DNA of 32,000 nucleotides, from contig JAUWKS010000009.1 of NCBI GenBank assembly GCA_030614005.1, forward strand, positions 30,001 through 62,000, given 5' to 3'. A program made the translations under genes and the position numbers. The DNA is from Candidatus Heimdallarchaeota archaeon. GTDB taxonomy: Archaea > Asgardarchaeota > Heimdallarchaeia > JABLTI01. This document shows, piece after piece, positions 922 through 6,210 of the stretch. Within the stretch, counting starts at the first letter, position 1, and the number at the start of each line of letters is the position of its first letter. The notes beneath the pieces are model-generated. The model was not told the origin of the DNA. It saw only the letters and a program-made list of their open reading frames with translations, and ran no database searches.

Positions 922-980
922 CTATTGTTTATCATCATTATCTACTATTTTCTTCTATGTACTACTATTTTCTCTCTATA
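922..980 (+). promoter_or_regulatory. Phased CTAT repeat array and TTCTCTCTATA motif upstream of pstB1 (candidate phosphate-regulon operator)
   Basis: CTAT at 922, 945, 955, 965 and 976. Exact 12-bp direct repeat CTACTATTTTCT at 942-953 and 962-973. TTCTCTCTATA at 970-980 recurs upstream of both pstS genes. Confidence 0.5.
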
Positions 981-1044
981 CCCAACACATAATATTGATT
1001 CTAAATGCATATGGAAGTAGATTGAAACTGACTGTTGAATTGTT

Positions 1045-1905
1045 ATGGTGTCAAAAACCAGTGATATATCAGAATCAACTTCTATAGCAATAAAAATTGC
1101 TAATGAACTAATTAATAGTTCAGAAATCACTCAAGATGAAATATTTGAAGAAAACGAAGTAAAAATGGAAGTAGTGAATTTATCACATTGGTATGGTGAT
1201 AATCAAGTTTTATCTGGTATATCTATGCCTATCTTCAAGAACAAAGTTACAGCTATTATTGGTCCTTCTGGTTGTGGAAAATCAACCTTTCTTCGCGATT
1301 TGAATCGGATGAATGATTTGGTGTCTATCTCTAGAACATCAGGTGATATTCTATTAGGAAACAAAAACATCCATGACAGTGATGTAGACGTAGTTCAATT
1401 GAGAAAACGAATTGGTATGGTCTTTCAGAAACCAAATCCTTTTCCTATGCCAATAGAAAATAACATAGCTTATGGACCTTATATCCATGGGGTAAAATCA
1501 GACCGTATTCCTGCAATTGTGAAAAGTTGTTTGCAAAAAGCAGTTCTGTGGGATGAAGTCAAAGATCGATTAAAAGACAATGCTCTTTCTCTCTCCGGTG
1601 GGCAACAACAGAGGTTATGTATTGCACGAACTTTATCCGTTCAACCTGAAGTAATTTTGTTTGATGAACCTTGTAGCTCTCTTGACCCGCACGCTACCGC
1701 TAAGATTGAGGACTTGATTACAAAATTGAAACAAGATTATACAGTAGTGATAGTTACTCACAATATGCAACAAGCAGCTCGAGTGTCTGATTATACTGCA
1801 TTCTTCAACTTAGGCGATCTTGTAGAATTTAATAGTACTAAAACAATATTCAGATCTCCGGAGCAAAAAAAGACAGAGGAGTATATTTCCGGTCGATTTG
1901 GTTAA
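1045..1905 (+). CDS. pstB: Phosphate ABC transporter ATP-binding protein (copy 1)
   Basis: Walker [10 protein letters not shown], PstB-typical [48 protein letters not shown] and C-terminal YISGRFG. Confidence 0.96.
1393..1449 (+). repeat. 57-bp tract identical between pstB1 (1393-1449) and pstB2 (2467-2523)
   Basis: gttcaattgagaaaacgaattggtatggtctttcagaaaccaaatccttttcctatg is present verbatim in both genes. Confidence 0.9.
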
Positions 1906-1930
1906 CTCGCTTCTATTGGTGATTAGTGCA

Positions 1931-2059
1931 TTGAATGAAAATAATGAACAGTTTGATGAAATTTTACGCTCCAAAGAGTTAATGAGCAAATATGTGAATA
2001 ATGTGGGATTGATTCAATATAGTATTCGAATACATTTGAATAAATATTTTTATAGCTAA
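1931..2059 (+). CDS. Putative 42-aa small protein between the two pstB genes
   Basis: GGTGA at 1918-1922, 8 nt spacer, then TTG 1931 to TAA 2057-2059: [42 protein letters not shown]. No family recognised. Confidence 0.3.
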
Positions 2060-2088
2060 GAACTATCGGAATAGTGGTGACTATATTT

Positions 2089-2979
2089 TTGCCAGCAAAT
2101 ACTCGCGATTCACTTTCCAAAGCTAAAGCACTCGAAGACAGGAGAGAAGAAGCAAAGCTTGCTATAAAAATAGCTGCTGATTTAACCGATCCTCCCGAAA
2201 TTGTCCGAGAAGAATTAATAAAAACCCACGAATTAAAAATGGAGTCAGTTGAACTTTCACATTGGTATGGTGATAACAGGGTTCTTTCGGGTATTTCCAT
2301 GCCTATTTTCAAAAACAGGGTTACAGCTATCATTGGTCCATCTGGTTGTGGAAAAACAACCTTTCTTCGCGATTTAAACCGAATGAATGATTTAGTTAAG
2401 ATTGCACGAATTGCTGGCCAAATTTTACTTGATGGGCAAGATATCTACGCAGAGCACATTGATGTTGTTCAATTGAGAAAACGAATTGGTATGGTCTTTC
2501 AGAAACCAAATCCTTTTCCTATGTCAATTGAAAATAATATTGCTTATGGTCCATATGTTCATGGAGTTAAGCATGAGGGTTTGGATGAAATTGTAGAAAG
2601 CTCCTTGAAAAAAGCTGCTTTGTGGGAGGAGGTTAATGATCGATTAAAAGATTCTGCTTTATCATTATCTGGAGGTCAACAACAACGATTGTGCATTGCG
2701 CGAGCATTATCTATTGAACCTGAAGTTCTCTTAATGGATGAACCTTGCAGTTCTCTTGACCCGCACGCTACTGCTAAGATTGAGGATTTGATTACAAAAT
2801 TAAAGCAAGATTATACTGTAGTGATCGTTACACACAATATGCAGCAAGCTGCTCGAGTGTCTGATTACACGGCATTTTTCAATATAGGGGAATTAATTGA
2901 ATTTGATAGAACAAAGAAGATCTTTGCTAATCCTGAAAGGAAAATGACTGAAGAGTATATTTCAGGACGATTTGGATAG
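2089..2979 (+). CDS. pstB: Phosphate ABC transporter ATP-binding protein (copy 2)
   Basis: Same PstB motifs ([45 protein letters not shown]). Start placed at TTG 2089 because GGTGA (2076-2080) lies 8 nt upstream; the ORF track starts at GTG 2074. Confidence 0.96.
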
Positions 2980-3036
2980 GTAGTTAGGATACAAATTAAT
3001 TAACGAATATGAATACTATAAAAAAAGGTGAAAAAA

Positions 3037-3970: not shown

Positions 3971-4017
3971 CACATAAGAGGTGCACAAAGAAAAAAACAA
4001 AACGGTGATAAAATAAA

Positions 4018-4950
4018 ATGTCATTTGGTAAAAATACAAACAAACTAACATACCTCCTTATTGCCTTAATCTTTGTTGGAACGGGTTTAGGAGTCTTTAT
4101 TGGTTGGATTGCTTTTTATGATGGACAAGGTGGAGATTCATATACCTTAAACGTTCAGGGTTCCACCACAGTAGAAAAAATATGTACTTTATCTGCAGTT
4201 CCTTTTATGGATGCACATCCTGGTGTACAAGTAACGATCTCAGGTACTGGTTCCGGAACGGGGATTGGAACTTTAATCAATGGTCAATGTGATATTGCAA
4301 TGGCTTCCAGAGCTGTAAAATCTTCTGAAAATGAAACCGCTCATACAAGCACAGGTGCTTGGTTGAGACAATTTACAATTGCGAAAGATGGGCTGGCAAT
4401 TATTATTAATGACGATGCTACCAGTGTTTTAGATCTCAGTTTAGATGAAATCAAGGCAATTTTTAACGGCACAATTTCTAGTTGGGATAGTACTGCCCTG
4501 CCTGATGTAGGGTTATCTGGTGATATTCTAGTAGTGGTTAGAGAAGAAGGTTCAGGAACAAGAGATACATTCAACGGCTTAGTTATGGGTGACGCTGATC
4601 AAGAATTTCCCGATAGTCAATATGTTGGTGATGCTCTACCTATGTCTAGCAATCAGATGATTTTCGATGAGGTTAATACTAATCCTCAAGCAATTGGTTA
4701 TGTGGGGTTAGGTTACCTTGGTAATGGCGTTGAATCAGTACATATAGATGGTGTTGAACCAACTTTTGAAACAATAGTGGATACAACATATTCTATTCAA
4801 AGAGGTCTCTATCTAGTAACACTCGGTGATCCCGACGTTGGTTCATTAGTATGGGAATATGTGAATTGGCATTTCAGTCCAGATGGGCAATATTATATCT
4901 TTGATTCGGGATTCATAAATATCTTGCCAAGACGAGATAATTTACTATAA
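4018..4950 (+). CDS. pstS: Phosphate ABC transporter substrate-binding protein (copy 1), N-terminally membrane-anchored
   Basis: N-terminal hydrophobic helix, QGSTTV, GTGSGTG, IAMASR, AKDGLAII, VREEGSGTR and AIGYVGLGY. GGTGA at 4004-4008. Confidence 0.93.
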   Translation: MSFGKNTNKLTYLLIALIFVGTGLGVFIGWIAFYDGQGGDSYTLNVQGSTTVEKICTLSAVPFMDAHPGVQVTISGTGSGTGIGTLINGQCDIAMASRAVKSSENETAHTSTGAWLRQFTIAKDGLAIIINDDATSVLDLSLDEIKAIFNGTISSWDSTALPDVGLSGDILVVVREEGSGTRDTFNGLVMGDADQEFPDSQYVGDALPMSSNQMIFDEVNTNPQAIGYVGLGYLGNGVESVHIDGVEPTFETIVDTTYSIQRGLYLVTLGDPDVGSLVWEYVNWHFSPDGQYYIFDSGFINILPRRDNLL

Positions 4951-4962
4951 GCAAAGAAGTTC

Positions 4963-4990
4963 GGAGATTTATTCTCCTAACATTTTTTTT
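4963..4990 (+). terminator. Hairpin plus T-tract after pstS1
   Basis: GGAGA-TTTAT-TCTCC (4963-4977), followed by an 8-T run ending at 4990. Confidence 0.55.
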
Positions 4991-5030
4991 CATAAACAAA
5001 TAGAAGAAGCAAAAAAGAGCAATGTTTCAT

Positions 5031-6035
5031 TTAGTGAGCTCTATCAATTGCCATTTCAGCAATATCTAATCCATAACCGCAGATTCTATCCAAGTGTCTT
5101 TCTACAAGCTGAATTTGTATTTCCACATCAAAATCCGATGTTCTTTGTCTTGTCAGTTTCTCAGTTTCAAGTTTAGACTGTAATTCCTCAAATATCTTAA
5201 TTGCTTTGAAAGCTAATTTCAATTTGTTTCCAAGAAAACTCTGTATTGCTAATGTATGAATTTCAACCGCTTGTTTTGAATATTCAATTAAATATTTTCT
5301 AGTGGCTTCATCATCTATTGTCTTATCTTGTAAATCAAAGCAGCTTTTAGCGATACTTTCACAATGATCAGCAATCTTTTCCAAAGACTTTGCAACAGGA
5401 TAAATATACAAGACTTCTTGAGGTTTAATATTCATTTCTTTTAGGACGATTGGATTTTCTAAAGCTGATGAGATCTCTCTTCTAATTAAGAAATAGAGTC
5501 TGTCAACTGCATTTTCTCTTTCGAAAATATCTTTTGCACTTTCTTTATCTGATGTAACAAATGATTTGATAGCTACTACTTGCATATTTCTAGCAATTAA
5601 GTGTCCTCTTCTTAAAGCCTTATCAATTGGGAATTCCCCATGGATTGCTAAATCTCGAATCTCTACTTCTTGGAAAGACTCGGAGATAATTTCGCTTCCA
5701 ATAAGCTTCGAAACCGTAGAAGAAATTGCTTTACTTGTTTTCGGAGAAATATCGCTCTTGGATTTAATAATAATCTTGGAAAAACCGGCAAGATATTTTG
5801 AAATAATGATTTTCTCAAGTAAACTGGTTTCACCTATAACATCAATATCAATAATCACTTCTCTTTCCCTTGTGGGAGTCAAGGAGTTTTTTGATAAAAG
5901 GAGTGTCCCATCGTTTTGCTCTAAGATAGATAACTCTTCTCCCTGCTTCAAATTTAATCTTGTAACCCATTCTCGGGGAAGACTTATTGTATAGGTTGAT
6001 TTTCCAGTAAGTTGTATTTTTCGTTTTACGGACAT
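5031..6035 (-). CDS. phoU: Archaeal phosphate uptake regulator: AbrB/SpoVT-type DNA-binding domain fused to PhoU repeats
   Basis: N-terminus RKIQLTGKSTYTISLPREWV...LKQGEELSILEQNDGTLLL is AbrB-like. PhoU repeats ENAVDRLY...KSLEKIADHCESIA and RHLDRICGYGLDIAE. ATG 6035 preferred over TTG 6047. Confidence 0.88.
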   Translation of the reverse strand: MSVKRKIQLTGKSTYTISLPREWVTRLNLKQGEELSILEQNDGTLLLSKNSLTPTREREVIIDIDVIGETSLLEKIIISKYLAGFSKIIIKSKSDISPKTSKAISSTVSKLIGSEIISESFQEVEIRDLAIHGEFPIDKALRRGHLIARNMQVVAIKSFVTSDKESAKDIFERENAVDRLYFLIRREISSALENPIVLKEMNIKPQEVLYIYPVAKSLEKIADHCESIAKSCFDLQDKTIDDEATRKYLIEYSKQAVEIHTLAIQSFLGNKLKLAFKAIKIFEELQSKLETEKLTRQRTSDFDVEIQIQLVERHLDRICGYGLDIAEMAIDRAH

Positions 6036-6057
6036 TTTACATCCCAAAAGCTTGTGC

Positions 6058-6210
6058 GTTTCTATATACTAATACTATCAAATTACTCTCTAGTATATAT
6101 TAACTGTTATAAACTATAGTTATTTAATTCTCTCTATATAGAAACACTAAAACTATATTCAACTATTGTTATGTAAATAGACTATACACAGAAATATTAT
6201 CTTAAAGACT
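6058..6210. promoter_or_regulatory. Divergent promoter region between the AbrB-PhoU regulator and pstS2-pstC-pstA
   Basis: CTAT at 6062, 6075, 6114, 6134, 6153, 6163 and 6182. Inverted pair GTTTCTATATA (6058-6068) / TATATAGAAAC (6135-6145). TTCTCTCTATA at 6128-6138. Homologous to the pstS1 upstream region. Confidence 0.65.

What the first reader, a model, noticed from the sequence alone, without database searches (positions are those of the whole stretch)
970..6143. One exact 11-mer (TTCTCTCTATA) upstream of all three pst transcription units: candidate archaeal Pho box
Seen directly: TTCTCTCTATA at 970-980 (upstream of pstB1), at 6128-6138 (between the regulator and pstS2) and inverted at 3887-3897 (upstream of pstS1). 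The two pstS copies extend to an 18-bp perfect match in opposite orientation (3882-3899 vs 6126-6143) containing the palindrome TCTATATAGA. A further inverted copy of the core sits at 6058-6068, next to the regulator's own start. I saw no copy upstream of pur genes. Established: archaea lack PhoR-PhoB, and AbrB-PhoU fusions are the usual candidate pst regulators. Inference: this is the operator of the 5031..6035 protein, defining an autoregulated phosphate regulon. Orientation independence fits a repressor site better than a core promoter.
Basis: partly seen in the sequence, partly recalled or inferred. Interest (0 to 1): 0.72.

Follow-up and report, generated by a model that had tools for sequence, protein, structure and literature searches.

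The report
Archaeal phosphate-gene operator boxes
The repeated 11-letter word is real, but it is the local form of a short palindrome (TCTATATAGA) and of phased CTATA boxes. These mark phosphate-uptake promoters next to an AbrB-PhoU regulator gene in this Heimdall (Asgard) archaeon and in many other archaea, so they are a testable candidate for the archaeal phosphate switch.

Summary
TTCTCTCTATA occurs three times in the window, against 0.06 expected, each time upstream of a pst unit. The two pstS copies share an exact 18-mer in opposite orientation. The genome has seven copies, four of them intergenic, and three of those four are here.

The conserved unit is not the 11-mer. In all six related Heimdallarchaeota genomes that carry the regulator, TCTATATAGA is the only 10-mer shared by every pstS promoter. 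In 49 AbrB-PhoU loci from Asgard, Bathyarchaeia, Nitrososphaeria, Micrarchaeota, Halobacteriales and others, exact CTATATAG is about 20 times denser in the 200 nt before the regulator gene than in other intergenic DNA.

In this genome the boxes form helically phased CTAT arrays: four before pstB1 and five before pstS2. These are two of only three such arrays in 3.6 Mb.

The arrays end just upstream of BRE/TATA-like blocks. A near-box overlaps the regulator's own presumed TATA box.

No binding, transcription-start or expression data exist for this organism. The pstB box also persists in relatives where no regulator was found. This scan has reported the same palindrome before in other archaeal genomes.

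The parts
945..981 (+). Array of four same-strand CTAT boxes (starts 945, 955, 965, 976; spacing 10-11 bp) upstream of pstB1.
   Evidence: one of only three chains of 4 or more in the genome; sequence. A TTTTCTCTATAC-like box sits at the same place in relatives.
994..1007 (+). Presumed BRE/TATA of the pstB1 promoter (TGATTCTAAATGC). It lines up with AAAGATTTTAAAGC of relatives.
   Evidence: side-by-side reading of pstB upstream regions. It resembles the genome's tRNA promoters. Inferred: no transcription start is mapped.
1045..3714 (+). pstB1 (1045-1905), pstB2 (2074-2979) and phoU (3028-3714).
   Evidence: Pfam ABC_tran and PhoU; NCBIfam phoU_full 132.8 bits.
3882..3899 (-). pstS1 box: the 18-mer with palindrome core TCTATATAGA at 3883-3892, in the opposite orientation to the pstS2 copy. 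Further CTAT boxes start at 3875 and 3913.
   Evidence: It is an exact 17-bp reverse-complement match to the pstS1 box of the closest relative.
3950..3965 (+). BRE/TATA-like block of pstS1 (AAAAGCATTATCTTAA).
   Evidence: Conserved block in the alignment of eight pstS promoters. Inferred promoter.
4018..4950 (+). pstS1, phosphate-binding protein.
   Evidence: Pfam PBP_like_2.
5031..6035 (-). AbrB-PhoU regulator gene (334 aa, ATG at 6035).
   Evidence: Pfam MazE/AbrB residues 12-53 and PhoU residues 149-234; NCBIfam; PDB PhoU 1t72 matches the PhoU part only; orthologues.
6062..6069 (.). Near-box CTATATAC, about 30 nt upstream of the regulator's ATG. It overlaps the presumed TATA box of a leaderless or short-leader regulator transcript.
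   Evidence: The closest relative has ATATATAG at the same place. It is not conserved in the more distant genus members.
6114..6187 (+). Array of five same-strand CTAT boxes (starts 6114, 6134, 6153, 6163, 6182; spacing 20, 19, 10, 19 bp) upstream of pstS2. It includes the palindrome TCTATATAGA at 6133-6142 and the 18-mer at 6126-6143.
   Evidence: The same five-box chain is present in the closest relative. The palindrome is invariant in all eight pstS promoters.
6192..6205 (+). BRE/TATA-like block of pstS2 (AAATATTATCTTAA), about 58 nt downstream of the palindrome centre.
   Evidence: Conserved block. Inferred promoter.
6259..9139 (+). pstS2 (6259-7191), pstC (7218-8198) and pstA (8198-9139).
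   Evidence: Pfam. The start at 6259 was chosen by alignment with pstS1.

Best explanation
The 11-mer copies are the local form of a phosphate-regulon operator. The operator consists of short CTATA-type boxes, which form the palindrome (T)CTATATAG(A) at the pstS promoters. The boxes are set in arrays on one face of the helix (10- or 20-bp spacing) just upstream of the BRE/TATA elements of the pstB and pstS promoters. The most likely binder is the adjacent AbrB-PhoU protein. Its AbrB-type N-terminal domain would bind the boxes as a dimer or higher oligomer. Its PhoU domain would make binding depend on phosphate status. Because the arrays end upstream of rather weak TATA-like blocks, I infer that at pst promoters the bound protein helps to recruit TBP/TFB, that is, it activates under phosphate shortage. 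The near-box over the regulator's own presumed TATA would give autorepression. Shown here: the sequence pattern, its rarity, its conservation, and its linkage to the regulator gene. Inferred: who binds, the direction of control, and the transcription starts.
For: (1) Rarity and placement. There are 3 copies of the 11-mer against 0.06 expected in the window. CTATATAG occurs 36 times in 3.62 Mb, only 10 of them intergenic, and 2 of those lie at the pstS promoters. The genome has only three phased CTAT chains of 4 or more boxes; two of them are the pstB1 and pstS2 promoters.
(2) Conservation. TCTATATAGA is the only 10-mer shared by all eight pstS promoters of six genomes whose regulators are 63-92% identical.
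(3) Linkage to the regulator within the family. The palindrome is present in all six genomes that have the regulator. In four relatives where no regulator was found, by single protein or by profile, pstS follows phoU directly and has no palindrome.
(4) Linkage across Archaea. I compared 49 AbrB-PhoU loci with GC content from 0.31 to 0.66. Exact CTATATAG is at 1.97 per kb in the 200 nt upstream of the regulator. In other intergenic DNA of the same loci it is at 0.095 per kb. 37 of the 49 loci have a copy within one mismatch, and 22 have two or more. 28 of the 49 carry pst genes in the fetched DNA, mostly pstSCA divergent from the regulator.
(5) Not the generic promoter. tRNA and pstB promoters in this genome use AAA..TTTAAAA/TTATAAA. 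CTATATA occurs in 37 of 2062 upstream regions, against 261 for TTTAAAA.
(6) Direction of control. The boxes lie upstream of BRE/TATA-like blocks. Haloarchaeal pho boxes are described as essential for up-regulation (PMC6560208). The archaeal activator Tar likewise binds palindromes upstream of BRE/TATA (PMC6737238).
Against: There are no binding, transcription-start or expression data for this organism. The BRE/TATA assignments are read from sequence only. The TTTTCTCTATAC-like pstB box is kept in G003 and G008, where no AbrB-PhoU gene was found (those genomes are 83-85% complete). The pstB box may therefore serve another factor. The third phased array in the genome, on contig C1, precedes a conserved small gene with no evident link to phosphate. 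It is kept, in degenerate form, in regulator-less relatives. The genome-wide number of phased chains (3) equals the chance expectation of 2.35; only their location is unusual. Regulator and palindrome are physically adjacent, so their joint presence or absence within the genus may be a single event. The related genomes are not independent samples. One-mismatch copies of the palindrome are not enriched in the window.
Confidence: 0.55

Rival explanations
1. One reading: same boxes and same AbrB-PhoU binder, but acting purely as a repressor that holds the pst promoters off when phosphate is plentiful and is released on starvation.
For: The orientation of the extended arm is free: the pstS1 box is flipped between this genome and its closest relative. 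A long phased array could coat the promoter region. The near-box at 6062-6069 overlaps the regulator's presumed TATA. Bacterial AbrB-family proteins are mostly repressors (established knowledge).
Against: At pstB and pstS the boxes end upstream of the BRE/TATA-like blocks and do not overlap them. The pstS TATA-like blocks look weak, as in activator-dependent promoters. Haloarchaeal pho boxes are reported as required for up-regulation (PMC6560208).
Confidence: 0.22
2. The boxes are real regulatory or promoter elements but are not bound by AbrB-PhoU. They would be either unusual, partly palindromic TATA boxes of a bidirectional promoter in the regulator-pstS spacer, or sites for another factor present in all members of the genus.
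For: The core is TATATA. The palindrome sits mid-way in a divergent spacer, about 102 nt from the regulator start and 121 nt from pstS2. The pstB box and the contig-C1 array persist in genomes where no AbrB-PhoU was found.
Against: The flanking C and G are invariant, and the element follows AbrB-PhoU genes even in genomes of 56-66% GC and in phyla with different TATA consensus sequences. The genome's generic promoters look different. A separate conserved BRE/TATA-like block lies closer to pstS.
Confidence: 0.18
3. The repeats are left over from the duplication of pstS and pstB with their promoters, or from chance in AT-rich DNA, and have no function.
For: pstS1/pstS2 and pstB1/pstB2 are recent paralogues, and the two pstS leaders are homologous over about 60 nt.
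Against: The palindrome is invariant in single-copy pstS promoters of four other lineages whose spacers are otherwise diverged. It recurs across phyla. The pstB1 upstream region is not paralogous to the pstS ones.
Confidence: 0.03

Closest known systems
Pho boxes of the Halobacterium salinarum pst1/pst2 promoters (Furtwangler et al. 2010, known to me only through its summary in PMC6560208)
   Same: Short boxes in the promoters of archaeal phosphate ABC-transporter operons, attributed to 'PhoU' transcription factors and needed for up-regulation on phosphate starvation. A Halobacteriales AbrB-PhoU locus fetched here carries GTATATAG and CTATATAG upstream of the regulator gene (L082).
   Different: The original paper is not held, so I could not compare sequences. 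This case is in an Asgard archaeon with 33.5% GC. It shows a 10-bp palindrome plus 10/20-bp phased half-boxes, and two duplicated pst units.
Bacterial Pho box with PhoB-PhoR
   Same: A repeated short box upstream of pstS and pstB that defines a phosphate-starvation regulon. The boxes are phased by about one helical turn (established knowledge).
   Different: A different binder: a winged-helix response regulator controlled by a histidine kinase, as opposed to a one-component AbrB-PhoU fusion. The box sequence is also different, and the bacterial box replaces the -35 element of a sigma-70 promoter. This is an analogy, not membership.
AbrB / SpoVT / MazE / MraZ swapped-hairpin DNA-binding proteins
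   Same: The regulator's N-terminus matches this domain (Pfam PF04014). Such domains bind DNA as dimers or larger assemblies. From memory, MraZ reads direct repeats spaced by one helical turn.
   Different: Here the domain is fused to a PhoU module. The target is AT-rich CTATA boxes in an archaeal TBP/TFB promoter. Binding has not been shown.
Archaeal activators that bind palindromes upstream of BRE/TATA (for example Tar/TK0271 of Thermococcus kodakarensis, PMC6737238)
   Same: Palindromic sites lie just upstream of the BRE/TATA of several operons of one pathway, and control is positive.
   Different: An unrelated protein family and motif. Activation here is inferred from position only.

Membership tests
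Archaeal AbrB-PhoU ('PhoU-type') transcription regulators | N-terminal SpoVT/AbrB-type DNA-binding domain | tested here: met
   Pfam PF04014 at residues 12-53, E 3.3e-10. NCBIfam AbrB-family domain hit is weak. The N-terminus is strongly conserved down to 30% overall identity.
Archaeal AbrB-PhoU ('PhoU-type') transcription regulators | C-terminal PhoU domain(s) | tested here: met
   Pfam PF01895, E 4.3e-18. NCBIfam phoU_full matches in two stretches. PDB 1t72 PhoU matches residues 149-237.
Archaeal AbrB-PhoU ('PhoU-type') transcription regulators | Gene adjacent to pst genes, usually divergent from pstS | tested here: met
   The window layout shows it. 28 of 49 homologous loci carry pst genes in the fetched DNA.
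Archaeal pho box (operator of the phosphate regulon) | Located in promoters of phosphate-uptake operons and rare elsewhere | tested here: met
   The eight other intergenic CTATATAG sites in the genome have no phosphate-related neighbours among those scanned.
Archaeal pho box (operator of the phosphate regulon) | Conserved upstream of orthologous pst and regulator genes in other genomes | tested here: met
Archaeal pho box (operator of the phosphate regulon) | Bound by the regulator and required for phosphate-dependent transcription | not testable with these tools
   This needs EMSA or footprinting and reporter or in vitro transcription assays.
Archaeal pho box (operator of the phosphate regulon) | Sequence agreement with the published H. 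salinarum pho box | not tested
   The paper (PubMed 20199599) is not held. Only a secondary summary was read.
Bacterial PhoB Pho box | Direct repeats of the PhoB consensus, replacing the -35 element of a sigma-70 promoter | tested here: not met
   The sequence is a TATATA-centred palindrome or CTATA boxes. The sigma-70 scan gave no enrichment. The organism is an archaeon. The PhoB consensus is recalled from memory.
Generic archaeal TATA box | Matches the genome's own promoter consensus and is common upstream of genes | tested here: not met
   tRNA and pstB promoters use AAA..TTTAAAA/TTATAAA. CTATATA is in 1.8% of upstream regions, against 12.7% for TTTAAAA.
Generic archaeal TATA box | Centred about 26-27 nt upstream of the transcription start | not testable with these tools
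   No RNA run is listed for this DNA.

The most novel reading that the evidence does not exclude
CTATATAG-type boxes together with a one-component AbrB-PhoU sensor-regulator would be the ancestral, pan-archaeal phosphate switch, shared by Asgard, TACK, DPANN and euryarchaeal lineages. It would work by phosphate-dependent, helically phased oligomerisation upstream of BRE/TATA, which recruits TBP/TFB. This would be a PhoBR-independent solution that predates the divergence of these phyla and is present in the closest archaeal relatives of eukaryotes.
Probability: 0.35. Interest if true: 0.75.

Novelty: new member of a known kind. Interest (0 to 1): 0.5.

Why it matters
How archaea sense phosphate and switch on phosphate uptake without PhoR-PhoB is poorly understood outside one haloarchaeon. 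Almost nothing is known about gene regulation in Asgard archaea. This locus offers a defined protein and defined DNA fragments of 40 to 75 bp. Those can go straight into gel-shift, footprinting and in vitro transcription assays. The cross-phylum conservation means that a result in any tractable archaeon would probably transfer to the others.

Tried and rejected
- RNA evidence: no RNA holder is listed for window 3000-7500. Only DNA runs from marine sediment and cold seeps were listed, so no transcription start or expression could be read.
- Rfam on 1-12500: nothing at gathering score.
- The sigma-70 promoter and terminator scan was uninformative for an archaeon.
- Phasing statistic: the genome-wide number of CTAT chains of 4 or more (3) matches locally shuffled DNA (mean 2.35) and other 4-mers of the same composition. 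I therefore use only the location of the chains as evidence, not their count.
- Exact-CTAT chains of 4 or more are not kept in the more distant genus members. Their phasing is visible only with degenerate boxes, by eye, so it is weak.
- Regulon expansion: neighbours of the other intergenic CTATATAG sites gave no phosphate-related Pfam hits. The pit operon at 9938-11657 has no box.
- One-mismatch copies of CTATATAG are not enriched in the window: 15 against 12.6 expected.
- Literature: the primary Halobacterium pho-box paper is not held. Seven full-text searches found no paper that names CTATATAG or shows an AbrB-PhoU protein binding DNA.
- I ran no structure or complex prediction.

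
Full report
**Organism and genes**

The window is contig C59:30001-62000 of a 3.62-Mb, 126-contig genome with 33.5% GC. Its closest relatives in public records are named Heimdallarchaeota MAGs. DNA runs that hold this stretch come from marine sediment and cold seeps.

Pfam and NCBIfam give the following genes:
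- pstB1 at 1045-1905
- pstB2 at 2074-2979
- phoU at 3028-3714
- pstS1 at 4018-4950
- an AbrB-PhoU fusion at 5031-6035 on the minus strand
- pstS2 at 6259-7191
- pstC at 7218-8198
- pstA at 8198-9139

A pit operon (PhoU_div plus PHO4) follows on the minus strand at 9938-11657. Purine-synthesis genes fill much of the rest of the window.

**Checking the observation**

TTCTCTCTATA is at 970-980 (+), 3887-3897 (-) and 6128-6138 (+). That is 3 matches against 0.06 expected.

The 18-mer AATTCTCTCTATATAGAA occurs exactly twice in the genome, once at each pstS promoter and in opposite orientation. Genome-wide the 11-mer has 7 copies. Three lie inside long ORFs, one is intergenic elsewhere, and three are here.

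The 'extra copy' near the regulator start is really CTATATAC at 6062-6069, a one-mismatch copy of the palindrome core.

**What is conserved**

The regulator has orthologues in five further genomes: four of the same genus and one of a sister genus, at 63-92% identity.

In every one of them the spacer between the regulator and pstS contains TCTATATAGA. This is the only 10-mer shared by all eight pstS promoters, including the two paralogous pairs. The rest of the spacer is diverged.

The TTCTCT arm at pstS is found only in this genome and its closest relative. In that relative the pstS1 box is in the opposite orientation to the one here: an exact 17-bp reverse-complement match inside collinear flanks. 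The core is therefore constrained, while the orientation of the arm is not.

At pstB a different but overlapping word is conserved. It is TTTTCTCTATAC-like and lies 17-25 nt upstream of a canonical AAAGATTTTAAAG-type BRE/TATA. In one lineage, G009, it lies further upstream.

**Linkage to the regulator**

In G003, G006, G007 and G008 no AbrB-PhoU gene was found, either with the protein or with a profile of eight orthologues. These genomes are 82-85% complete. In them pstS follows phoU directly and has no palindrome.

I then fetched 49 AbrB-PhoU loci from across Archaea. They include Heimdallarchaeota, Bathyarchaeia, Nitrososphaerales and Conexivisphaerales, Micrarchaeota, Halobacteriales, Methanocellaceae and Thermoplasmatales, with GC from 0.31 to 0.66.
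- Exact CTATATAG is at 1.97 per kb in the 200 nt upstream of the regulator gene.
- It is at 0.095 per kb in other intergenic DNA of the same loci and 0.031 per kb in coding DNA.
- 37 of the 49 loci have a copy within one mismatch, and 22 have two or more. By eye, the copies are mostly 20, 30 or 40 nt apart.
- 28 of the 49 loci show pst genes in the fetched DNA. The usual layout is pstSCA divergent from the regulator.

These loci are related to each other, so the counts overstate independence. Even so, the pattern spans phyla and base compositions.

**Rarity and phasing in this genome**

CTATATAG occurs 36 times in the genome, 10 of them intergenic, and 2 of those are at the pstS promoters.

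I looked for same-strand CTAT boxes spaced 9-11 or 19-21 bp apart in chains of four or more. There are three such chains in the whole genome:
- 945-976, before pstB1
- 6114-6182, before pstS2
- one on contig C1

The count itself is what chance gives: shuffled DNA averages 2.35 chains. What cannot be chance is that two of the three sit in pst promoters.

The closest relative keeps the five-box pstS2 chain. In more distant relatives the phasing is visible only with degenerate boxes.

**Promoter context**

The tRNA genes, the pstB genes of relatives and the contig-C1 gene all carry AAA..TTTAAAA/TTATAAA-type BRE/TATA elements. CTATATA is in only 37 of 2062 upstream regions, against 261 for TTTAAAA. 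The box is therefore not the generic TATA element.

All eight pstS promoters share a second conserved block, of the type AAAnATTATYTTAA. In this window it lies about 58 nt downstream of the palindrome centre. I read it as a weak BRE/TATA.

On that reading the arrays end just upstream of BRE at pstS2, and 17 nt upstream of the TATA at pstB1. This is the position typical of archaeal activator sites.

That fits the statement in PMC6560208 that the H. salinarum pho boxes are essential for up-regulation. It also fits the architecture of the Tar activator (PMC6737238).

The near-box at 6062-6069 lies about 30 nt before the regulator's ATG, where the TATA of a leaderless transcript would be. This suggests autorepression. 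All of this promoter reading is inference, because no transcription start is known.

**Caveats**

- The pstB box persists in G003 and G008, where no regulator was found.
- The third phased array precedes a highly conserved 102-aa protein of no recognised family. It is also kept in regulator-less relatives.
- A second factor that recognises CTATA-like boxes therefore cannot be excluded.
- Nothing shows that AbrB-PhoU binds DNA here.

**Comparison and novelty**

The nearest described system is the haloarchaeal pho box with PhoU-type regulators. I could read it only second-hand.

The bacterial PhoB Pho box is a functional analogue, not a relative.

The look-up of earlier notes came after my own. 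It shows that this scan has reported the same palindrome in Nitrosopumilus, Bathyarchaeia and other archaeal genomes. Those notes agree with my results but are not independent evidence.

I file this as a new, Asgard member of a known but barely characterised kind. What this locus adds:
- the duplicated pst units
- the flipped 17-mer
- the phased arrays
- the presence/absence contrast with regulator-less genomes of the same genus

Noticed in passing
G000 contig C1:55405-55470 (L108:1906-1971): Four TCTATA-type boxes at exactly 20-bp spacing, one of them CTATATAG, end right at a CTTTTAAATAG TATA box. They lie about 60 nt upstream of a 102-aa protein that is 84-98% identical across the genus and has no Pfam or NCBIfam hit. 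The array is conserved in all genus members. The central box lies in an inverted repeat (GTACTAT-N4-ATAGTAC here) whose arms change together in relatives (for example GTAACAT..ATGTTAC). Relatives without the AbrB-PhoU gene have ATCTAAAT instead of CTATATAG/T at the centre.
   Followed up: partly
window 3883-3899 versus L031 (G010) pstS1 promoter: The 17-mer TCTATATAGAGAGAATT is an exact reverse complement of the box at the same place in the closest relative, inside collinear flanks. This is a tiny local inversion around the palindrome.
   Followed up: yes
window 1045-7191; relatives in L032-L035 and L104-L107: Only this genome and its closest relative have duplicated pstB (75% identity between copies) and duplicated pstS with its promoter. 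Other regulator-bearing relatives have one of each. Regulator-less relatives have a single pstB(-pstB)-phoU-pstS operon.
   Followed up: partly
window 9240-11657 (-): A pit-type operon: a DUF47/PhoU_div protein (10983-11657), a PHO4-family phosphate permease (9938-10933) and an unassigned 242-aa ORF (9240-9968) conserved in two relatives. No CTATA box lies upstream of it.
   Followed up: partly
window 12100-14374 (+): Two tandem paralogues with DUF1246 plus DUF1297 domains (archaeal PurP-type FAICAR synthetase family). They are followed by scattered pur genes on the minus strand: purE, purD, purF, purL, purQ.
   Followed up: no
G000 contig C71:90626: ARAGORN labels one of only 17 detected tRNA genes as tRNA-Pyl (CUA anticodon). 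I did not check whether it is genuine or whether pyl genes are present.
   Followed up: no
L066 / L008 (G030, another Heimdallarchaeia family): Two pairs of ACTATATAG boxes 19 bp apart. One pair lies upstream of the AbrB-PhoU gene and the other upstream of pstS on its far side. Each pair is flanked by CTATTGTT or its complement, a word also conserved about 27 nt downstream of the palindrome in this window.
   Followed up: partly
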